This document shows positions 59 to 5,378 of a DNA stretch of 5,378 nt, piece by piece. The stretch covers positions 1 through 5,378 of IMG/VR virus record IMGVR_UViG_2695420579_000006; one strand, 5' to 3'. This DNA comes from a virus (lineage: Duplodnaviria > Heunggongvirae > Uroviricota > Caudoviricetes). The notes below the pieces were generated by a model. That model worked only from the letters and a program-made list of their open reading frames with translations, was not told the origin of the DNA and made no database searches. The translations under genes were made by a program, and so were the position numbers. Position 1 is the first letter of the stretch, and each line of letters begins with the position of its first letter.

Positions 59-84
59 TAAAAACAAAAACCCGCCGAAGCGGG
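59..84 (-). terminator. Rho-independent terminator at the 3' end of hok-family transcript copy A
   Basis: Minus-strand hairpin CCCGC-UUCG-GCGGG (plus 71-84) followed by a U-run (plus-strand A-run 61-70). Confidence 0.6.
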
Positions 85-154
85 TTAAGTGTGGGTGCAT
101 TGAGGATGCCTGACCCATCAGAGGTGGCGAGGGATTTCTCCCCCGCCTGGTCTC

Positions 155-172
155 TTACTCCTCAGGTTCGTA
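155..172 (-). CDS. hok: 3' fragment of a hok-family toxin gene, HokD/RelF-like C-terminus (...YEPEE, stop at 155-157); the 5' part is lost in the N gap
   Basis: Minus-strand translation of 158-172 gives YEPEE then TAA. The flanking 3' UTR (97-172) is homologous but diverged from the copy B 3' UTR (284-359). Confidence 0.5.
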   Translation of the reverse strand, partial: YEPEE

Positions 173-193
173 NNNNNNNNNNNNNNNNNNNNN
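173..193. other. Assembly gap (21 N); true length and content unknown
   Basis: Run of n characters in the sequence. Confidence 0.95.
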
Positions 194-238
194 CTATCTG
201 CGAAGGTGCGCGAATCAAATTCACCGGAAATAAACAAC

Positions 239-282
239 AAAAAACCCGCCGAAACGCTGAGAGATCACAGCGATGGGCGGGT
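239..282 (-). terminator. Rho-independent terminator of hok mRNA copy B
   Basis: Minus-strand stem CCCGCC(282-277)/GGCGGG(250-245) with an inner CGCUG/CAGCG pairing, followed by a U-run (plus-strand A-run 239-244). Confidence 0.6.
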
Positions 283-353
283 TAAGTGCGGGTGCGTTGA
301 GGATGCCTGACACATCAAAGGTGGCGGGAGATTACTCTCCCGCCTGGTCACTC

Positions 354-509
354 TTACTCTCTAGATTCGTAGTCTACGAAAACAGCGACCTCCGTCTGGC
401 CGATTCGGATTCGTACCTCGCAGAGGTCTTTCCTCGTTACCAGTGCCGTCACTATGACGGTTAAACAGATGACGATCAGGGCGATTAACATCGCCTTTTG
501 CTGCTTCAT
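354..509 (-). CDS. hok: Hok/Gef-family type I toxin (51 aa: MKQQKAMLIALIVICLTVIVTALVTRKDLCEVRIRIGQTEVAVFVDYESRE), copy B
   Basis: Internal ATG at 509-507 of the 70-aa ORF 354-566, preceded by AAGGAGAAG. Strong similarity (from memory) to HokD/HokC: single TM helix and the conserved RKDLCEVRIR...TEVAVF core. Confidence 0.85.
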   Translation of the reverse strand: MKQQKAMLIALIVICLTVIVTALVTRKDLCEVRIRIGQTEVAVFVDYESRE

Positions 510-566
510 AGCCTGCTTCTCCTTGCCTTTCGGCACGTAAGAGGCTAACCTACATTTGTGAGACAT
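354..566 (-). CDS. mok: mok-like reading frame: in-frame 19-codon N-terminal extension of hok (70 aa), copy B
   Basis: ATG at 566-564 with GAGG 10 nt upstream. Its position matches mok of hok/sok loci (and MokC, as I recall it) relative to the sok promoter, which lies inside it. Confidence 0.5.
   Translation of the reverse strand: MSHKCRLASYVPKGKEKQAMKQQKAMLIALIVICLTVIVTALVTRKDLCEVRIRIGQTEVAVFVDYESRE
523..551 (+). promoter_or_regulatory. Predicted sok antisense promoter (-35 TTGCCT 523-528, 17-nt spacer, -10 TAACCT 546-551), copy B
   Basis: Sigma70-like hexamers with 17-nt spacing on the strand antisense to mok/hok. Same position and similar sequence to the plasmid R1 sok promoter as I recall it. 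Confidence 0.5.
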
Positions 567-628
567 AGATTGGGCCTCAGATTAATGTTAAGCGTCTTGC
601 AGGACGCGTAATGTTAACTGGGGCTTTT
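556..628 (+). ncRNA. sok: Predicted Sok-like antisense RNA (about 65-70 nt), copy B; ends approximate
   Basis: Starts just downstream of the predicted promoter and is antisense to the mok start and SD. Ends in a stem GCCUCAG(574-580)/CUGGGGC(615-621, one G-U pair) followed by UUUUCUCU. Confidence 0.5.
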
Positions 629-666
629 CTCTGTCTGCCTTACAGTGACATACCCGAGGCAGACAG

Positions 667-681
667 CCTCAAGCACCCGCA
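667..681 (-). promoter_or_regulatory. Candidate 5' tac-like element of hok mRNA, complementary to the 3' fbi-like element at 287-302
   Basis: Minus-strand 5'-UGCGGGUGCUUGAGG (681-667) is complementary, with one bulged base, to minus-strand CCUCAACGCACCCGCA (302-287) about 380 nt downstream in the same transcript. Confidence 0.45.
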
Positions 682-684
682 GCA

Positions 685-720
685 ATCTTACCGACACCGA
701 TAAGAAAACGCTATTTTTTA
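685..720 (-). promoter_or_regulatory. Approximate hok promoter region, copy B (-10 candidate TAAGAT at 690-685; no clear -35)
   Basis: Position inferred from the predicted 5' end of hok mRNA; the -35 match is poor. Confidence 0.3.
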
Positions 721-847
721 TTGCCAGCACCATCTATCCAGGCTAGTTTATCTGCGTCAGAACGGCGCAATGCGCTCGCCTGAGATACGTTTACTTGCCA
801 TGGTAACAACAGGTAACGGCAATTGCTGTTTCTGTTTTGTTTCCTTC

Positions 848-878
848 AAAAACCCCGGACCATCAATCCGGGGTTTTT
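848..878. terminator. Bidirectional intrinsic terminator between the upstream operon and the hok module, copy B
   Basis: Stem CCCCGGA(853-859)/UCCGGGG(867-873) flanked by an A-run (848-852) and a T-run (874-878). Confidence 0.65.
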
Positions 879-883
879 GTTTG

Positions 884-967
884 TTAACCCCAACGGCAAA
901 TCGAATACACCACCAGCGCCACCGCCATCGCAATTCCTACCGTTGTTAATGCTTCAGGCCAGGTCAT
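884..967 (-). CDS. Conserved 27-aa micro-ORF ([27 protein letters not shown]), predicted small hydrophobic peptide, copy B
   Basis: ATG at 967-965 overlaps the TGA of the 114-aa gene (ATGA). GGAGG lies 10 nt upstream, and the stop sits immediately before the terminator. An identical arrangement occurs in copy C with a different upstream gene. Confidence 0.45.
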
Positions 968-1308
968 CGTAAAATATCCTCCACGCTTATCAGTCCGTTC
1001 CGCTCCAGATAACTCATCGCCTTATCCGGTAATTTGCAGTCTGGCTTCGCTTTCCTCAGTTGCCAGGTTAACTGCTTTACCAGCATGGTTAACTCATCGA
1101 CCAGACGCTGATATCCCACTGGTTTGTATTCATGCAATTTACCGGCTGGCTCTGCTGCCAGCGATACCAGTGCGATTTCCAGAACAGCAATATCCATCTT
1201 ATATGTGCGGATGATGTCATGGTCGATTGTGCCCGGTATGCACAGTCTCTGTGCTTCAATAGTCTCCTCTGCGTGAGCTATTAACTGCTCTCTGGTAAAA
1301 GTCGTCAT
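964..1308 (-). CDS. Hypothetical prophage protein, 114 aa, carrying the shared N-terminal MTTFTREQ...[10 protein letters not shown] module
   Basis: Full ORF with AAGGGG SD 8 nt upstream of the ATG. Start overlaps the stop of the 55-aa ORF (ATGA). Confidence 0.7.
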
Positions 1309-1472
1309 GCCGTAGCCCCTTCTTGATATTTTTCAAACCAGAACACAACCGGCTCTGCTTCCAGCGATGCCAGCGCAATCCGTGCCAGTTCCATTTGTTC
1401 ACCACGGGTAAGCCCGTTTTCAAGCGGGTTTTTAATGAACAATTCAATACGTTCTTTGGTAATAGTGGTCAT
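1305..1472 (-). CDS. 55-aa mosaic ORF: N-terminal module related to the 221-aa gene, C-terminal 16 aa identical to the HNH C-terminus
   Basis: AAGGAG SD then ATG at 1472-1470. The 5' end is near-identical to 4476-4455. The 3' block 1306-1353 is identical to 4474-4521. Confidence 0.55.
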
Positions 1473-1681: not shown

Positions 1682-1724
1682 TGAGGTGTACTGGCAATAG
1701 CGGACACTACCATTTGTTCTTTTT

Positions 1725-2543
1725 TTAAGCAGCCATCTGATGATATTTTTCCCTGAAGGCTGCCGGGGAGATATTCCCCAGACGAGAGTGACGACGCTGA
1801 CGATTGTAGAAAATCTCAATGTATTCCCGTATTACTGAGATGGCTTCATCCCGGTTATTAAAACGATAGTGGCTCAGGCTCTCATTTTTCAGCGTTCCCC
1901 AGAAGCTTTCCATCGGAGCGTTGTCGTAACAGTTACCTTTACGCGACATTGATGTTTTCAGACCAGACTGCTCCTGTATGACCCGGTAATCGTATGCGCA
2001 GTACTGTGAACCTCGATCAGAGTGGTGGATTAGCCCGGCAGGTGGGCGCTGGCTCCTGAGCGCCATAAACAGGGCTTTACCTGTCAGCTCTTTTGTCATG
2101 CGCTCTCCCATGGCGTAGCCGACAATTTCGCACGTATAAACATCTTTGATGCCAGCGAGGTACAACCATCCCTCCTGTGTGGCAACATACGTCAGGTCCG
2201 CCACCCAGACCTGATTTGGTGCTGTAGGAGCGAACGTCTGGTTCAGCAGATTTGGCGCAACTGGCAGATTGTGGTTCGAGTTCGTAGTCGCTCTGAACTT
2301 GCGTTTCTGCTTACAGCGTAGCCTTAGCTCCTTACGAAGACGTGCCAGTCGGTCACGACCAACGATGATGCCATTCTCTGCCAGCTCCGTCTGGAGCCGC
2401 CGGGTTCCATATGTTTCGCGAGTGCGGATATGTGCCACCTTAATCTCCAGTTTTAGCCGCTCATCACTTTGTTTTCTGTCTGAGGGTTCATGCTGTACCC
2501 AGTTGTAATAACCGCTCCTGGATACACCAAATACCTGACACAT
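1725..2543 (-). CDS. insB: IS3-family transposase OrfB (272 aa from the first ATG; frame stays open upstream into the frameshift window)
   Basis: Protein carries the rve/DDE integrase core (from memory). It is in the -1 frame relative to orfA. Confidence 0.9.
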   Translation of the reverse strand: MCQVFGVSRSGYYNWVQHEPSDRKQSDERLKLEIKVAHIRTRETYGTRRLQTELAENGIIVGRDRLARLRKELRLRCKQKRKFRATTNSNHNLPVAPNLLNQTFAPTAPNQVWVADLTYVATQEGWLYLAGIKDVYTCEIVGYAMGERMTKELTGKALFMALRSQRPPAGLIHHSDRGSQYCAYDYRVIQEQSGLKTSMSRKGNCYDNAPMESFWGTLKNESLSHYRFNNRDEAISVIREYIEIFYNRQRRHSRLGNISPAAFREKYHQMAA

Positions 2544-2578
2544 CGCTTCAATGGGAAATTGTTGTCGCCATTGTTCGA

Positions 2579-2819
2579 TTAACGCGTATTTTTCAGCGAC
2601 TCCTGTGCAAAATACGCTGTTGCTTTTTTTAATATATCTCGCTCAAGGCGAGCTTCATTTAACGCCTTACGCAGTTGCAGAATTTCAGATTCCAGTTCAG
2701 CCACCGTGCGGGAACCAGGAGTACCGAGCCCTTTTCTGGCGGCGGTAACCCATTGTCCTAAAGTGCCTTCAGGAAGAGATAATCGGGAAGCGCCTTCACT
2801 GATCGAAAGTTGATTTTCA
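2579..2819 (-). CDS. insA: IS3-family transposase OrfA, 5'-truncated (residues ~22-100; helix-turn-helix and leucine-zipper region)
   Basis: Translation ENQLSISEGASRLSLPEGTLGQWV...ILKKATAYFAQESLKNTR matches IS600 OrfA as I recall it. The native start codon is absent. Confidence 0.8.
2584..2630 (-). promoter_or_regulatory. Programmed -1 ribosomal frameshift site (A AAA AAA G at 2630-2624) with downstream 9-bp stem (2618-2610 / 2592-2584) producing OrfAB
   Basis: A heptanucleotide run of A in the orfA zero frame. The -1 frame is continuous into orfB. The stem GCGUAUUUU/AAAAUACGC begins about 6 nt downstream. Confidence 0.6.
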
Positions 2820-2820: not shown

Positions 2821-2835
2821 CCCGCCTGGTCACTC

Positions 2836-2991
2836 TTACTCTCTAGATTCGTAGTCTACGAAAACAGCGACCTCCGTCTGGCCGATTCGGATTCGTACCT
2901 CGCAGAGGTCTTTCCTCGTTACCAGTGCCGTCACAATGACGGTTAAACAGATGACGATCAGGGCGATTAACATCGCCTTTTGCTGCTTCAT
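2836..2991 (-). CDS. hok: Hok/Gef-family type I toxin, copy C (identical protein to copy B)
   Basis: Same as copy B, offset +2482. It differs by one synonymous third-position change (ATA to ATT, Ile, at 2935). Confidence 0.85.
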   Translation of the reverse strand: MKQQKAMLIALIVICLTVIVTALVTRKDLCEVRIRIGQTEVAVFVDYESRE

Positions 2992-3048
2992 AGCCTGCTT
3001 CTCCTTGCCTTTCGGCACGTAAGAGGCTAACCTACATTTGTGAGACAT
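2836..3048 (-). CDS. mok: mok-like in-frame extended reading frame, copy C
   Basis: Identical to copy B at offset +2482. Confidence 0.5.
   Translation of the reverse strand: MSHKCRLASYVPKGKEKQAMKQQKAMLIALIVICLTVIVTALVTRKDLCEVRIRIGQTEVAVFVDYESRE
3005..3033 (+). promoter_or_regulatory. Predicted sok promoter, copy C (-35 TTGCCT 3005-3010, -10 TAACCT 3028-3033)
   Basis: Identical to copy B at offset +2482. Confidence 0.5.
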
Positions 3049-3110
3049 AGATTGGGCCTCAGATTAATGTTAAGCGTCTTGCAGGACGCGTAATGTTAAC
3101 TGGGGCTTTT
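3038..3110 (+). ncRNA. sok: Predicted Sok-like antisense RNA, copy C; ends approximate
   Basis: Identical to copy B at offset +2482. Confidence 0.5.
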
Positions 3111-3329
3111 CTCTGTCTGCCTTACAGTGACATACCCGAGGCAGACAGCCTCAAGCACCCGCAGCAATCTTACCGACACCGATAAGAAAACGCTATTTTT
3201 TATTGCCAGCACCATCTATCCAGGCTAGTTTATCTGCGTCAGAACGGCGCAATGCGCTCGCCTGAGATACGTTTACTTGCCATGGTAACAACAGGTAACG
3301 GCAATTGCTGTTTCTGTTTTGTTTCCTTC

Positions 3330-3360
3330 AAAAACCCCGGACCATCAATCCGGGGTTTTT
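3330..3360. terminator. Bidirectional intrinsic terminator, copy C
   Basis: Identical hairpin to 848-878. Confidence 0.65.
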
Positions 3361-3365
3361 GTTTG

Positions 3366-3449
3366 TTAACCCCAACGGCAAATCGAATACACCACCAGCG
3401 CCACCGCCATCGCAATTCCTACCGTGGTGAATGCCTCAGGCCAGGTCAT
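3366..3449 (-). CDS. Conserved 27-aa micro-ORF, copy C ([27 protein letters not shown])
   Basis: ATG at 3449-3447 overlaps the TGA of the DUF551-like gene (ATGA), with AGGAGG 7 nt upstream. The three differences from copy B are all at codon third positions. Confidence 0.45.
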   Translation of the reverse strand: MTWPEAFTTVGIAMAVALVVYSICRWG

Positions 3450-3811
3450 TGATTCACCTCCTGCGGTGGTTCCGGTAGCGGCATCCAGTGAGTTGAGCTC
3501 TCTACTTCAACGCCGTCTTTGTCCACAAAAGCCATCTTATTCCCGCCACGAGTGGGGCAAAAAACCTTATCCCAGGAACCGGGGAATACATTCCCGAGAT
3601 CATCGAGAAGAATCACATCGCAATATTCAGCAGGAACTGCATCACTACAGCTTATCCAGCCAGCCGGAGCTACCGGAGAGTTGCCAGCCTTACGCATGGC
3701 CATTTCCACGATTTCAACCATATCTCCTGGTGGAATTTTACAAAGTTGCCCAATACATTTCTGCTGCCTGGCATATTCGAGAATGTGCTCCAGTTTGGTT
3801 CGATTAATCAT
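3446..3811 (-). CDS. Prophage protein, 121 aa, DUF551-like (C-terminal THWMPLPEPP motif)
   Basis: Full ORF with GGGAG SD. Start overlaps the stop of the 221-aa gene (TAATG). The DUF551 call rests on the recalled C-terminal motif only. Confidence 0.65.
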   Translation of the reverse strand: MINRTKLEHILEYARQQKCIGQLCKIPPGDMVEIVEMAMRKAGNSPVAPAGWISCSDAVPAEYCDVILLDDLGNVFPGSWDKVFCPTRGGNKMAFVDKDGVEVESSTHWMPLPEPPQEVNQ

Positions 3812-4476
3812 TATTTATCTCCCTTAAGCATGGCAGCGCGGCAGGCGTTCCAGCCATCAACATAATCAAACGTATTACTATCGTTTGGCCCGATTTCATC
3901 CGGCACTATCGGCTCTGGTTGGATAGTGACGTTGGCAAAGGCAGCACGCAAACCGGTTTTAATTTCTTCGATTTCATCAGAGCCAAGCGATGAATCTGAC
4001 AGTGCGTGATGGAATGCGTAAGCCATGTCGTCGTTTACTGCAACCGGCACTGCCGGCGCTGCGTAAAGCGGTGTTATATCTGCCCGAAAATCACATGCTT
4101 TATGCAGTCGTACCCAACACTCAACTTCCGCTTTGTCAAAATATATAGCAGTGAACGTATTAGATTCCTGGTCAACTTGAGTAAACGTCACCTTCCACGC
4201 TACAGCTACGGCTTTCCATCCATCAGGTTGTCGCATTCGCGGGGCAGCATAAAGCTCATGCATTCCATCAGGCAGCGAGTGACCCACATACTCACCGAAC
4301 CCGTCAATACACATGCCCCCATCTTCAACAATGCATTCCGCTACAGGCTCTGCTTCCAGTGATGCCAGAGCGATAAGCGCCAGTTCACGAATTTCACCGC
4401 CGTCTATATCGTCAATATCATCGCGGCCAGAAATGTTAGCCAGCCATTGCAGTCGCTCTTTGGTAATAGTGGTCAT
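3811..4476 (-). CDS. Hypothetical prophage protein, 221 aa, with the shared N-terminal module (MTTITKER...[10 protein letters not shown]) and two LYAAP motifs
   Basis: Full ORF with AAGGGG SD 8 nt upstream. Start overlaps the HNH stop (ATGA). Confidence 0.75.
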   Translation of the reverse strand: MTTITKERLQWLANISGRDDIDDIDGGEIRELALIALASLEAEPVAECIVEDGGMCIDGFGEYVGHSLPDGMHELYAAPRMRQPDGWKAVAVAWKVTFTQVDQESNTFTAIYFDKAEVECWVRLHKACDFRADITPLYAAPAVPVAVNDDMAYAFHHALSDSSLGSDEIEEIKTGLRAAFANVTIQPEPIVPDEIGPNDSNTFDYVDGWNACRAAMLKGDK

Positions 4477-4838
4477 GCCGTAGCCCCTTCTTGATATTTT
4501 TCAAACCAGAACACAACCGGGTCAGATTTCATTTCAACCAATCCCATACGAACCAGCGCTTTGCCTTTCCCGGACGCAAGGAATTCACGACGACCATCAC
4601 TGATAATTCGTCGATAATCTTCCAGGCTACTGCAATGCTTGTGCAGATTGCATGGGTGGCATGCTGGTACCATGTTGGATATATCGTCACGTTCCTGGTG
4701 AAGCATATTTCCATCAAAACGAATGACCGGTTTTACATGGTCTGCATGCCACTTTTCGCCAAGTTCGCAGCCGCAATAAGCGCAGCGACCACCGAACTTC
4801 ATGCGCAGTTCTGCACGTTGTTTTTTCGTCAGTGCCAT
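4473..4838 (-). CDS. HNH endonuclease, 121 aa from the internal ATG at 4838
   Basis: HNH signature CAYCGC...WHADHVKP...ACHPCNLHKH. The start is chosen at MALTKKQ, with AAGGAAA upstream and 1 nt after the stop of the 72-aa ORF. The longer 151-aa frame would overlap that ORF. Confidence 0.8.
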   Translation of the reverse strand: MALTKKQRAELRMKFGGRCAYCGCELGEKWHADHVKPVIRFDGNMLHQERDDISNMVPACHPCNLHKHCSSLEDYRRIISDGRREFLASGKGKALVRMGLVEMKSDPVVFWFEKYQEGATA

Positions 4839-4839
4839 A

Positions 4840-5058
4840 TCAGCTTTCCTTATACGGATTAATTTTATTGTGCAGTGTGTTGAATGACGCCCATACCACG
4901 TCGTTATACAATTCAATAACTGGCTCAATTATTTTTCCGATTATCCAGACAAAAATTAGCGGGGATATCGGTGTCATCAACACGATAAACAGAATGAGAA
5001 ACAGGAATTCTGTTGTTCTACTCTTTCGCGGATATTTTTTTCTAAATAATGTAACCAT
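4840..5058 (-). CDS. Small membrane protein, 72 aa: basic N-terminus, one long hydrophobic segment; sits in a locally AT-rich segment
   Basis: ORF MVTLFRKKYPRKSRTTEFLFLILFIVLMTPISPLIFVWIIG.... Stop is 1 nt before the HNH start. The leader is structured (see hairpin feature). Confidence 0.5.
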   Translation of the reverse strand: MVTLFRKKYPRKSRTTEFLFLILFIVLMTPISPLIFVWIIGKIIEPVIELYNDVVWASFNTLHNKINPYKES

Positions 5059-5064
5059 TCATTA

Positions 5065-5086
5065 CCGCCCTTTCGGGCGGTCTCCT
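5065..5086 (-). promoter_or_regulatory. Leader hairpin CCGCCC-GAAA-GGGCGG (5080-5065) between an AGGAG (5086-5082) and the ATG of the 72-aa ORF
   Basis: Perfect 6-bp GC-rich stem with a GNRA tetraloop. The AGGAG is 23 nt from the ATG in linear sequence but about 7 nt if the hairpin is formed. Confidence 0.4.
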
Positions 5087-5150
5087 GATGATTTGAGGGT
5101 GCAGAAATCCCTCCGGTTAAGGATTAAATTTTTAACAGTGCTAAATTTAA

Positions 5151-5378
5151 TTATTCAGTTCTGGATTTTGTCGCCCTGCGTATCCGCGCTTTCGCGTTAC
5201 GCTCAATCTGTATCAGCTTTTCTATATTTCTCCGCCTTTCCTGTTCCTCCTGGCGCAATAGCCTTACATCATCTGCCAGTCTGGTTTCTCTTTTTGCCAC
5301 AGAGAGCATCCAGTCAAACGGCTCCACAACCGCACCGCAGATTTTACAGCGGACCTGACGCTCTTTTTCGTCAACCCG
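5151..5378 (-). CDS. 3' portion (75 codons) of an unidentified gene running off the right edge; contains CKICG and a basic, coiled-coil-like C-terminus
   Basis: Minus-strand frame is open from the window edge to TAA at 5153-5151 (...RVDEKERQVRCKICGAVVEPFDWMLSVAKRE...ARIRRATKSRTE). Not in the ORF track because the start lies outside the window. Confidence 0.4.
   Translation of the reverse strand, partial: RVDEKERQVRCKICGAVVEPFDWMLSVAKRETRLADDVRLLRQEEQERRRNIEKLIQIERNAKARIRRATKSRTE

What the first reader, a model, noticed from the sequence alone, without database searches (positions are those of the whole stretch)
523..690. Complete hok mRNA control architecture can be read off the sequence
Seen in sequence: antisense promoter inside mok (-35 TTGCCT, -10 TAACCT, 17-nt spacer); a predicted Sok RNA of about 65 nt ending in a terminator-like stem plus U-rich tail; a mok SD covered by the antisense RNA; and long-range 5'/3' complementarity (667-681 with 287-302). 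These correspond to the sok promoter, sokT and tac/fbi elements of plasmid R1 hok/sok (established knowledge). Inference: the chromosomal copies are likely functional, not decayed relics.
Basis: partly seen in the sequence, partly recalled or inferred. Interest (0 to 1): 0.45.

Follow-up and report, generated by a model that had tools for sequence, protein, structure and literature searches.

The report
Prophage hok/mok/sok toxin–antitoxin locus

Summary
On the minus strand, window 678..~238 encodes a hok mRNA with every R1-type cis element. These are tac (678-667), fbi (302-290), ucb (626-618), mok SD (578-575), dcb (545-541), a 70-aa mok frame, a 51-aa Hok (Pfam HOK_GEF, 77 bits), a 3' hairpin and a terminator. 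On the plus strand, TTGCCT-17-TAACCT (523-551) sits in the same alignment columns as TTGCGC-17-TATCCT of an R1-type locus. It would drive a Sok RNA from about 558 to about 630: a 5' tail, a long hairpin and a U-rich end. Folding reproduces the known switch: the full-length mRNA pairs tac/fbi and ucb/SD (p about 1), and the 3'-trimmed mRNA pairs tac/ucb (p about 0.87). Rfam RF01794 scores 118 bits. Across 40 or more loci from Escherichia to Photorhabdus the 5' end pairs with the same 3'-UTR site, with compensatory changes.

- Sok is predicted at about 71-75 nt, not 65.
- The hexamers alone are at chance level.
- The loci are prophage-borne.
- Only copy 1 is complete in this window. Copy 2 is cut at an N beside a truncated IS600, probably a scaffold join. 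Copy 3 is a fragment.
- "Functional" remains untested.

Nothing here is new.

The parts
685..690 (-). hok promoter -10 box TAAGAT (TAnnnT). It places +1 at G678. The -35 is poor (TAGCGT at 713-708).
   Evidence: The sequence was read. It lies in the same alignment column as TATGAT of the R1-type locus and as TATAAT, TAGAAT and TATATT of other loci. The R1 -10 is TATGAT with essential T-12, A-11 and T-7 (PMC9841398).
238..678 (-). Predicted full-length hok (mok-hok) mRNA of about 440 nt. The 5' end is set by analogy with R1. The 3' end is set at the U-run of the terminator.
   Evidence: The fold has MFE -184 kcal/mol and z = -7.95. Rfam RF01794 covers 678..504 at 118 bits.
667..678 (-). tac (translational activator element), GGGUGCUUGAGG. 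It pairs with fbi in the full-length mRNA and with ucb in the 3'-trimmed mRNA. In the nascent transcript it pairs with 650-660, forming a metastable hairpin (650-676).
   Evidence: Pair probabilities are 0.97-1.0 for tac/fbi in the full-length form and 0.86-0.89 for tac/ucb in the trimmed form.
618..626 (-). ucb (anti-SD), AAGCCCCAG. It pairs with the mok SD region in the full-length mRNA and with tac in the trimmed mRNA. On the other strand the same bases form the 3' arm and U-tail of the Sok terminator.
   Evidence: AAAGCCCC is nearly invariant in 40 loci.
575..578 (-). mok Shine-Dalgarno GAGG, 8 nt upstream of the mok AUG (566-564).
   Evidence: It is invariant in the alignment. It is paired with ucb at p about 0.98 in the full-length mRNA.
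354..566 (-). mok reading frame, 70 aa. It overlaps hok in frame. It has the same length as R1 mok.
   Evidence: The ORF is listed. R1 mok is 70 aa (PMC9841398).
547..571 (-). sokT target hairpin: a 9-bp stem with the loop CUCACAA (562-556), which contains a YUNR-type CUCA. It holds the mok AUG and is complementary to the free 5' tail of Sok.
   Evidence: The Rfam consensus structure includes it and so does the MFE fold. The loop sequence varies between loci while the stem is kept.
541..545 (-). dcb (downstream complementary box), GCCUC, complementary to the mok SD GAGGC. It lies within the invariant block TAGCCTCTTAC.
   Evidence: The Rfam consensus pairs 578-574 with 545-541. In the thermodynamic model of the trimmed mRNA this pairing has a probability of only about 0.14.
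523..551 (+). Sok promoter: -35 TTGCCT (523-528), a 17-nt spacer, -10 TAACCT (546-551). The -35 is antisense to the CAA just 5' of the hok SD.
   Evidence: It is homologous in position to TTGCGC-17-TATCCT of the R1-type locus L001. It is not significant as a consensus match alone.
558..630 (+). Predicted Sok antisense RNA of about 71-75 nt: a free 5' tail (558-571), a long imperfect hairpin (572-626), and the tail UUUUCUCU.
   Evidence: See (z = -5.9). Both ends are predicted, not measured.
519..524 (-). hok Shine-Dalgarno AAGGAG, 9 nt upstream of the hok AUG (509-507).
   Evidence: The sequence was read. CAAGGAG is conserved in the alignment.
354..509 (-). hok ORF, 51 aa, HokD/RelF type, carrying the T36I variant.
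   Evidence: Pfam PF01848 HOK_GEF scores 77.3 bits, E = 6.7e-22. Relatives are compared.
362..376 (-). Hairpin UAGA-CUACGAA-UCUA around the Tyr47 codon UAC. The loop is identical to a tRNA-Arg(ACG) anticodon loop, so this is a candidate TadA A-to-I editing site that would recode Tyr to Cys.
   Evidence: The hairpin is predicted in the full-length MFE fold. UACGAA is invariant in 43 loci. Editing of hokB, hokC, hokD and hokE is reported in PMC12214031.
323..344 (-). 3' UTR hairpin GGCGGGAGA-GUAA-UCUCCCGCC. It is the presumed stop for 3' exonucleolytic trimming and so the presumed end of the truncated mRNA.
   Evidence: An equivalent hairpin occurs in the R1-type locus. Its role is inferred by analogy.
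290..302 (-). fbi (fold-back inhibitory element), CCUCAACGCACCC. It forms 12 bp with tac, with one bulged C (296).
   Evidence: It lies 45-56 nt after the stop codon in nearly all homologues with an intact leader, and shows covariation.
239..281 (-). hok intrinsic terminator: stem CCCGCC/GGCGGG (281-276 with 250-245) and a U-run (244-239). The loop holds an extra 23-nt mini-hairpin insert (about 254-276).
   Evidence: The same insert is present in S. flexneri L005 and E. coli L004.
2821..3172 (-). Copy 2 of the locus. It is identical to 339-690 except for one synonymous change (453/2935). It holds the hok ORF (2836-2991), mok (2836-3048), the Sok promoter (3005-3033), tac (3149-3160) and the hok -10 (3167-3172). 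It is cut at N2820, so the 3' hairpin, fbi and terminator are missing here.
   Evidence: In S. sonnei complete genomes the 100% identical locus has the full 3' UTR.
65..172 (-). Copy 3: only the last 5 codons (YEPEE*), the 3' hairpin, fbi (93-105) and the terminator (69-86) of a second hokD allele. It ends at the N-run 173-193.
   Evidence: See (repeat family D4).

Best explanation
Window 238-690 (minus strand) is a complete hokD-type hok/mok/sok type I toxin-antitoxin module. It lies between the replication and late-regulatory (antiterminator) genes of a lambdoid prophage, and the sequence is of Shigella sonnei type.

Proposed mechanism, by homology with plasmid R1:
1. A weak promoter (-10 TAAGAT) makes a roughly 440-nt mRNA.
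2. While the mRNA is nascent, its 5' end is held in a metastable hairpin.
3. Once complete, tac (678-667) pairs with fbi (302-290) and ucb pairs with the mok SD. The full-length mRNA is then neither translated nor bound by Sok.
4. Slow 3' trimming back to the hairpin at 344-323 removes fbi. tac then switches to ucb, which exposes the mok initiation region (sokT hairpin).
5. mok translation is needed to reach the hok start.
6. Sok, a short unstable antisense RNA of about 72 nt from TTGCCT-17-TAACCT, pairs through its free 5' tail with sokT. It covers the mok SD and AUG, and the duplex is destroyed.
7. If Sok supply stops, Hok is made and damages the inner membrane.
8. A further known layer, TadA editing of Tyr47 to Cys, is likely to apply.

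Shown here: the homology, the presence and placement of every element, the predicted two-state folding, and covariation.

Inferred, not shown: transcription, processing, Sok instability, toxicity and biological role.
For: - Rfam RF01794 gives 118.1 bits, E = 2.4e-27, over the full model, at both copies. The same model gives 87 bits on an R1-type control locus.
- Hok matches Pfam HOK_GEF at 77.3 bits. mok is 70 aa, as in R1.
- In the full-length mRNA, the MFE fold and the centroid both contain tac/fbi and ucb/SD, with z = -7.95. Pair probabilities are about 1.0 for tac/fbi and about 0.98 for ucb/SD in the full-length form. In the 3'-trimmed form they are 0.87 for tac/ucb and 0.11 for ucb/SD.
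- The first 40 nt of the nascent transcript form the metastable tac hairpin.
- Sok folds as a 5' tail plus hairpin plus U-tail, z = -5.9.
- The order stop, 3' hairpin, fbi, terminator is the same as in the R1-type locus.
- In 43 non-identical loci from Escherichia, Shigella, Kluyvera, Citrobacter, Photorhabdus, Pantoea and Erwinia, the best duplex of the 5' 14 nt with the 3' UTR lies 45-56 nt after the stop in nearly all loci with an intact leader.
- Covariation supports the tac/fbi helix. Pair 4-33 is UA in 9 haplotypes, CG in 7 and UG in 2. GAGG/CCUC is replaced by GAGA/UCUC. About 86% of cells are paired against 25-62% in slid controls.
- The Sok -35 TTG and -10 TAnnnT, the mok SD, ucb and the dcb block are conserved column by column.
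- The context is a prophage.
- The element definitions for R1 were taken from PMC9841398.
Against: - No transcript data were available, so the Sok and hok mRNA ends are predictions.
- The Sok promoter hexamers match consensus at only 7/12, and the hok -35 is poor.
- In the trimmed mRNA the thermodynamic model favours an alternative partner for the mok SD. The canonical SD/dcb stem has p about 0.14.
- Hok carries T36I at a position that is T, S, A or D in all relatives.
- According to the literature read here, the chromosomal hok loci that were tested did not give post-segregational killing.
- The covariation comes largely from one clade (Photorhabdus), so it reflects few independent events.
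Confidence: 0.93

Rival explanations
1. The locus is structurally intact but physiologically silent. Under this view it is hitch-hiking prophage cargo whose Hok is attenuated (T36I) or whose expression is too low to kill. 'Complete architecture' would then reflect recent spread and sequence inertia rather than current function.
For: - Hok T36I is unique among about 45 relatives and present in both copies.
- The hok promoter has a very poor -35.
- The surrounding prophages are IS-riddled (IS600, IS1).
Against: - Every cis-element is intact.
- Compensatory changes across genera show that the family is under selection for the RNA switch.
- Hok tolerates single substitutions even at conserved residues, and 42 of 45 homologues tested, including HokD, were toxic on over-expression.
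- A single chromosomal copy of R1 hok without Sok is lethal.
Confidence: 0.35
2. The three hok pieces within 3.2 kb, and the truncation of copy 2, are real genome structure: an IS600-associated rearrangement has produced an fbi-less hok allele next to an intact one. Such an allele would give a constitutively 'open' hok mRNA, restrained only by Sok made from two identical sok genes.
For: The window as given reads IS600-N-hok 3' UTR at 2819-2821, and hok fragment-N(21)-flank at 172-194. IS insertions next to hok genes are well known. In S. sonnei complete genomes IS1 sits directly after the hok terminator.
Against: - Both junctions coincide with N characters.
- IS600 is broken internally, lacking about 125 nt of its 5' end. 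An internal break is not what IS-mediated events produce.
- Each block ends inside a repeat.
- None of 5,426 complete E. coli genomes spans the IS600/hok junction.
- In S. sonnei complete genomes, sequence 100% identical to 2821-5378 continues with the 3' hairpin, fbi and terminator.
- The likelier reading is three contigs joined by a scaffolder.
Confidence: 0.1
3. The promoter-like hexamers and the 5'/3' complementarity are chance matches laid over a hok gene, with no antisense RNA and no long-range pairing.
For: Hexamer pairs of equal quality occur 68 times in the window. The promoter and terminator scan flagged neither the Sok promoter nor the Sok terminator. The bare tac/fbi duplex is reached by 2 of 200 shuffles.
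Against: - The hexamers are positionally homologous to those of the R1-type locus and are conserved in 40 loci.
- tac/fbi lies at the same place in nearly all homologues with an intact leader, with compensatory changes.
- Pair probabilities are about 1, and the whole-mRNA z-score is -7.95.
- Rfam gives E = 2.4e-27.
Confidence: 0.02

Closest known systems
hok/sok (parB) of plasmid R1, with R1-type loci on IncF plasmids (compared here with L001, pMTY1886_IncFII)
   Same: - The gene layout is the same: mok overlapping hok, with an antisense Sok whose promoter lies inside the mok 5' part.
- The order of RNA elements is the same: tac, metastable partner, ucb, hairpin, mok SD, sokT, dcb, hok SD, hok, 3' hairpin, fbi, terminator.
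- mok is 70 aa in both.
- The -10 boxes of both promoters sit in the same alignment columns.
- The predicted FL/Tr folding switch is the same.
   Different: - The Hok proteins differ clearly in sequence (identity not computed here), and the nucleotide match is limited to the leader core.
- The Sok/ucb-SD hairpin is about 18 nt longer, giving a Sok of about 72 nt against 64 nt. The 64-nt figure is my own recollection of the R1 literature.
- tac/fbi has a 1-nt bulge and differs in sequence.
- The locus is in a prophage, not a plasmid.
- The sokT loop sequence differs, so cross-talk with R1 Sok is not expected. For comparison, chromosomal Sok RNAs do not silence R1 hok.
hokD (relF) family of lambdoid and Qin-type prophages in E. 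coli and Shigella
   Same: - Hok is 90-96% identical to the hokD-type proteins of the genome-contig loci (L004-L012). In two E. coli complete genomes (L002, L003) the only difference is residue 36.
- RefSeq annotates homologous places as 'type I toxin-antitoxin system toxin HokD'.
- The prophage neighbourhood is the same: DUF551, HNH and DUF4014 on one side; DUF1367, YbcO and an antiterminator on the other.
- The extended leader hairpin is the same.
- The exact protein, and 100% identical DNA for 2821-5378, occur in S. sonnei Ss046 and other S. sonnei genomes.
   Different: The K-12-like hokD copy (L009) lacks the whole 5' leader, mok and sok. Its upstream region does not align, in line with the genomic rearrangements reported for K-12 hok homologues. 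The window's copy 1 has all of these. The window's protein has T36I.
hokC (gef)/sokC and the other chromosomal hok loci (hokA, hokB, hokE) of E. coli
   Same: The family and the RNA architecture are the same. The tac sequence GGGUGCUUGAGG is identical, and fbi is at the same distance from the stop in E. albertii, E. ruysiae and E. whittamii hokC. The TadA-editable Tyr codon is shared.
   Different: Hok is 76-78% identical. The leader hairpin is short and the Sok -10 differs. In an E. coli hokC copy (L015) the fbi region is replaced, so no cognate duplex forms.
Rfam RF01794 'sok antitoxin (CssrC)'
   Same: The full-length match far exceeds the gathering score: 118 bits against a threshold of 59.
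   Different: The model matches the hok-mRNA strand and runs from the mRNA 5' end to the hok AUG. It therefore describes the hok leader in its tac/ucb ('open') form, not the Sok RNA itself. This was confirmed on the R1-type control.

Membership tests
[quoted passage not shown] | A small hydrophobic Hok/Gef toxin ORF of about 50 aa. | tested here: met
   The 51-aa ORF at 509..354 matches Pfam PF01848 at 77.3 bits, against a cutoff of 22, E = 6.7e-22.
[quoted passage not shown] | An overlapping upstream mok reading frame with its own SD, through which hok translation is coupled. | tested here: met
   The 70-aa frame at 566..354 has GAGG 8 nt upstream of its AUG and the same length as R1 mok. The SD and AUG are conserved in the alignment. 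The coupling itself was not testable.
[quoted passage not shown] | The hok mRNA leader structure (covariance model RF01794). | tested here: met
   The score is 118.1 bits against a gathering score of 59, over model positions 1-157, at both copies.
[quoted passage not shown] | Long-range tac/fbi pairing that closes the full-length mRNA, with fbi just 5' of the terminator. | tested here: met
   Twelve base pairs with pair probabilities of 0.97-1.0. The position is the same and compensatory changes occur in homologues. Copy 2 in this window lacks fbi.
[quoted passage not shown] | Alternative pairings: ucb/mok-SD in the full-length mRNA, versus tac/ucb and SD/dcb after 3' trimming. | tested here: met
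   ucb/SD has p about 0.98 in the full-length form and 0.11 in the trimmed form. tac/ucb has p = 0 in the full-length form and 0.87 in the trimmed form. SD/dcb is present in the Rfam consensus but reaches only p about 0.14 in the thermodynamic model, so that sub-feature is inconclusive.
[quoted passage not shown] | A cis-antisense Sok gene: a promoter inside the mok 5' region, a free 5' tail, a hairpin and a U-tail, with complementarity covering the mok translation-initiation region. | tested here: met
   The sequence features are present and conserved in position. Transcription was not tested.
[quoted passage not shown] | Sok is actually transcribed and unstable, and the hok mRNA is stable and slowly 3'-processed. 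| not testable with these tools
   No expression data were available. This needs Northern blots, RACE and a rifampicin chase.
[quoted passage not shown] | Hok is toxic and Sok neutralises it (post-segregational killing or an equivalent phenotype). | not testable with these tools
   There is only indirect evidence. HokD and 42 of 45 homologues are toxic when over-expressed. The T36I variant has not been tested.
TadA-edited hok transcripts (hokB/C/D/E) | A Tyr codon UAC followed by G, inside a tRNA-Arg-like anticodon stem-loop. | tested here: met
   The hairpin UAGA-CUACGAA-UCUA at 376..362 is predicted in the MFE fold. UACGAA is invariant in 43 loci. Editing itself was not testable. Literature.

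The most novel reading that the evidence does not exclude
The IS600/hok junction at 2820 is real. Copy 2 would then be a natural hok allele that has lost its 3' hairpin, fbi and terminator, so its mRNA would be born in the translatable, Sok-sensitive 'open' form. Cell survival would depend entirely on Sok from two identical sok genes. Combined with the S. sonnei-specific Hok T36I change, this would be a natural experiment in how a host tames, or re-purposes, a de-repressed type I toxin.
Probability: 0.07. Interest if true: 0.45.

Novelty: already known. Interest (0 to 1): 0.12.

Why it matters
This is a textbook system found in a known place. hok/sok loci are catalogued in nearly 80% of available Enterobacteriaceae genomes, are enriched in prophages, and are counted in S. 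sonnei Ss046.

The value of the check is mainly practical:
- It shows that the complete R1-style RNA switch can be recovered from sequence for a hokD-type prophage locus.
- It gives exact coordinates for annotation.
- It warns that the Rfam 'sok' hit marks the hok-mRNA strand.
- It warns that two of the three 'copies' in this window are cut at N characters, which look like scaffold joins.

It does not open a new question. The only loose ends are the untested T36I variant and the longer Sok hairpin of the hokD group.

Tried and rejected
1. The generic promoter and terminator scan found neither the Sok promoter nor the Sok terminator. Its rules (at least 9/12 hexamer matches, uninterrupted stem) are too strict for this family, so a negative there is uninformative.

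2. I looked for plasmid R1 itself (KY749247) in the plasmid collection. It is not held. I used an IncFII plasmid whose Hok is 100% identical to the R1 Hok sequence I recalled. Its sokT region differs slightly from my memory of R1, so it is 'R1-type', not R1.

3. I tried to confirm the exact R1 Sok promoter mutations from the supplement of PMC9841398. No supplement is held. That TTGCGC/TATCCT is the R1 Sok promoter therefore rests on my own recollection plus the alignment.

4. I tried to find the source record in the genome-contig collection. Exact-protein look-up pointed instead to S. sonnei.

5. MAFFT alignment of the fbi region put the bulged and unbulged helices out of register. I therefore counted pairs in both registers and relied on per-locus duplex prediction.

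6. The weak Rfam hits (STnc30, PsrR1, His leader, isrK, rsmX, CsrC) are all far below gathering score. They are terminator hairpins or the hok 3' UTR, so I rejected them.

7. A search for 'CssrC' in the paper library returned only unrelated material.
Full report
**What is there.** The hok gene lies on the minus strand. The ORF list shows a 70-aa frame at 566..354, and within it a 51-aa Hok from the ATG at 509 (MKQQKAMLIALIVICLTVIVTALVTRKDLCEVRIRIGQTEVAVFVDYESRE). Hok matches Pfam HOK_GEF at 77.3 bits, E = 6.7e-22. Rfam's only significant hits in the window are RF01794 'sok' at 678..504 and 3160..2986, both at 118.1 bits, E = 2.4e-27, over the full model. Both hits are on the hok strand. On an R1-type control locus (L001, an IncFII plasmid whose Hok is 100% identical to R1 Hok) the same model again hits the hok strand, from the mRNA 5' end to the hok AUG, at 87 bits. 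RF01794 therefore models the hok leader in its tac/ucb form, not Sok itself.

**Checking the four observations.**
- *Hexamers.* TTGCCT (523-528), a 17-nt spacer and TAACCT (546-551) are exactly as stated. As a consensus match they score only 7/12. The promoter scan did not report them, and 68 equally good sites occur in the window. Their weight comes from homology. In an alignment of 43 non-identical loci they occupy the columns of TTGCGC-17-TATCCT in the R1-type locus. The TTG of the -35 is invariant; it is antisense to the CAA before the hok SD. The -10 keeps TAnnnT: TAACCT, TAATCT, TATCCT, TACCTT, TAACAT and TAGCCT. That TTGCGC/TATCCT is the mapped R1 Sok promoter is my recollection of the R1 literature and could not be verified here.
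- *Antisense RNA.* From about 558 the plus strand gives a 13-14 nt free tail, a long hairpin and CUUUUCUCU, at -30.7 kcal/mol and z = -5.9. The length is 71-75 nt rather than about 65, because the hokD group has a hairpin about 18 nt longer than the R1 and hokC types.
- *mok SD.* The SD GAGG (578-575) and the mok AUG (566-564) lie inside the Sok-complementary stretch.
- *5'/3' complementarity.* This is real, 15 nt against 16 nt with one bulge.

**Does it behave like the R1 switch?** I placed +1 at G678. The hok -10 TAAGAT (690-685) lies in the same alignment columns as the R1-type -10 TATGAT. The last T of the R1 box is T-7, which puts +1 seven nt downstream of position 685.
- The 443-nt mRNA (678..236) folds at -184 kcal/mol, z = -7.95. 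Both the MFE fold and the centroid contain 678-667 paired with 290-302 (tac/fbi), and 624-618 paired with 574-580 (ucb/mok SD).
- Pair probabilities in the full-length mRNA are 0.97-1.0 for tac/fbi, about 0.98 for ucb/SD, and 0 for tac/ucb.
- When the 3' end is trimmed back to just after the hairpin 344-323, tac/ucb rises to 0.86-0.89 and ucb/SD falls to 0.11.
- The first 40 nt alone form the tac metastable hairpin.

These are the three states described for R1 (PMC9841398). One imperfection remains: in the trimmed form the thermodynamic model gives the canonical SD/dcb stem only p about 0.14 and prefers another partner for the SD.

**Comparative evidence.**
- A scan of one genome per species returned 47 loci from Escherichia species, Shigella, Kluyvera, Citrobacter, Photorhabdus, Pantoea and Erwinia.
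- In nearly every locus with an intact leader, the best duplex between the first 14 nt and the 150-nt 3' UTR lies 45-56 nt after the stop codon, just 5' of the terminator.
- The helix covaries. GGGUGC/GCACCC becomes GGGCGC/GCGCCC. GAGG/CCUC becomes GAGA/UCUC. GAAG/CUUC appears in Citrobacter.
- On 19 distinct tac/fbi haplotypes, pair 4-33 is UA in 9, CG in 7, UG in 2 and unpaired in 1. About 86% of cells are paired against 25-62% when the partner is slid.
- These changes come from few clades, so they represent few independent events.
- Loci that have lost the leader (a K-12-like hokD, L009) or the fbi (an E. coli hokC, L015) show no cognate duplex. They act as internal negative controls.

**Context and the 'copies'.**
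- Phage and genome matches place the window in a lambdoid prophage, between DUF551/HNH/DUF4014 genes on one side and DUF1367/YbcO/antiterminator genes on the other.
- The exact Hok protein is found in S. sonnei genomes, including Ss046. Window 2821-5378 is 100% identical to those genomes.
- In those genomes the locus continues with the 3' hairpin, fbi and a terminator, followed directly by an IS1 end.
- In the window, copy 2 stops 15 nt after the hok stop, at a single N next to an IS600 that lacks its first 125 nt or so. No complete E. coli genome spans that junction.
- Copy 3 (65-172) is the 3' end of a second hokD allele, ending at a 21-N run. What follows the N-run is the downstream flank of a different allele.
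- Each block ends inside a repeat, so these are most likely scaffold joins. Only copy 1 shows the whole architecture in this window.
- The 3' region of copy 1, including a 23-nt insert in the terminator loop, exists contiguously in complete genomes.

**Function.**
- Sequence cannot decide whether the locus is active.
- In favour:
  - Every element is intact.
  - The family is under selection for the RNA switch.
  - Hok tolerates substitutions, and 42 of 45 homologues including HokD are toxic on over-expression.
  - One chromosomal copy of R1 hok without Sok is lethal.
- Against, or unknown:
  - T36I is unique among relatives.
  - The hok -35 is weak.
  - Tested chromosomal hok loci did not give post-segregational killing.

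The Tyr47 codon sits in a hairpin whose loop, CUACGAA, equals the tRNA-Arg(ACG) anticodon loop. UACGAA is invariant in 43 loci. TadA editing of this Tyr to Cys is reported for hokC, hokD and hokE.

**Novelty.** There is none. hok/sok abundance in enteric chromosomes and prophages, the counts for S. sonnei Ss046, and the RNA mechanism are all published.

Noticed in passing
window 504-678 (-) and 2986-3160 (-); L001 232-403 (+): Rfam RF01794 'sok antitoxin' matches the hok-mRNA strand, from the mRNA 5' end to the hok AUG. It does not match the strand that encodes Sok. Anyone annotating Sok from the strand of this hit would place it on the wrong strand.
   Followed up: yes
window 362-376 (-), also 2844-2858 (-): The hairpin UAGA-CUACGAA-UCUA surrounds the Tyr47 codon of hok. 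Its loop is identical to the tRNA-Arg(ACG) anticodon loop, so it is a candidate TadA A-to-I editing site (Tyr to Cys), as reported for hokB, hokC, hokD and hokE. UACGAA is invariant in 43 homologous loci.
   Followed up: partly
window 402-404 (-) (codon 36 of hok), also 2884-2886: Hok has Ile at position 36 (RIRIGQ) in both copies. All of about 45 relatives have T, S, A or D there. The exact protein is widespread in S. sonnei assemblies. The effect on toxicity is unknown.
   Followed up: partly
window 173-193 and 2820: A run of 21 N and a single N separate three blocks, each of which ends inside a repeat. One end is a hok 3' end. Another is an IS600 missing about 125 nt of its 5' end. The third is a hok 3' UTR cut in mid-hairpin. 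These look like scaffold joins. S. sonnei complete genomes are not collinear with the window here.
   Followed up: yes
window 1682-2819 (-): This is an IS600 (IS3 family) copy, 99.8-100% identical to copies in Stx phages and S. sonnei. Its right end is inserted in a prophage ORF, and its left end is missing at the N.
   Followed up: partly
window about 254-276 (-): A 23-nt insert forms a mini-hairpin inside the loop of the hok terminator of copy 1. It is also present in S. flexneri SFBU1023 (L005), E. coli ECMA0423 (L004) and FDAARGOS_943/944. It is absent from the S. sonnei copy-2 locus and from strain C7.
   Followed up: partly
L055 (S. sonnei Ss046) 6142-6260: In S. sonnei complete genomes an IS1 end abuts the last U of the hok terminator U-run. 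The mRNA is left complete, but everything downstream is replaced.
   Followed up: partly
window 847-879 (both strands), also 3329-3361: A strong 13-bp GC-rich hairpin flanked by A- and T-runs lies between the upstream prophage operon and the hok promoter. It is a likely bidirectional terminator that insulates hok from read-through.
   Followed up: no
window 884-967 (-), also 3366-3449 (-): A 27-aa hydrophobic ORF ([27 protein letters not shown]) overlaps the end of the preceding 114-aa ORF by ATGA and lies just upstream of the terminator. It has no Pfam hit. It is conserved next to hok in related prophages.
   Followed up: no
window 618-632 (both strands): The same bases serve two roles. On the hok mRNA they are ucb (AAAAGCCCC, which pairs with tac or with the mok SD). 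On the opposite strand they are the 3' arm and U-tail of the Sok terminator. One stretch is therefore under double constraint, which explains its near invariance.
   Followed up: partly
window 1287-1363 vs 4455-4531, and 1348-1391 vs 4343-4386: Repeated 44-77 nt modules (84-91% identical) span gene junctions of neighbouring prophage ORFs. This is typical mosaic recombination sequence of lambdoid phages.
   Followed up: no
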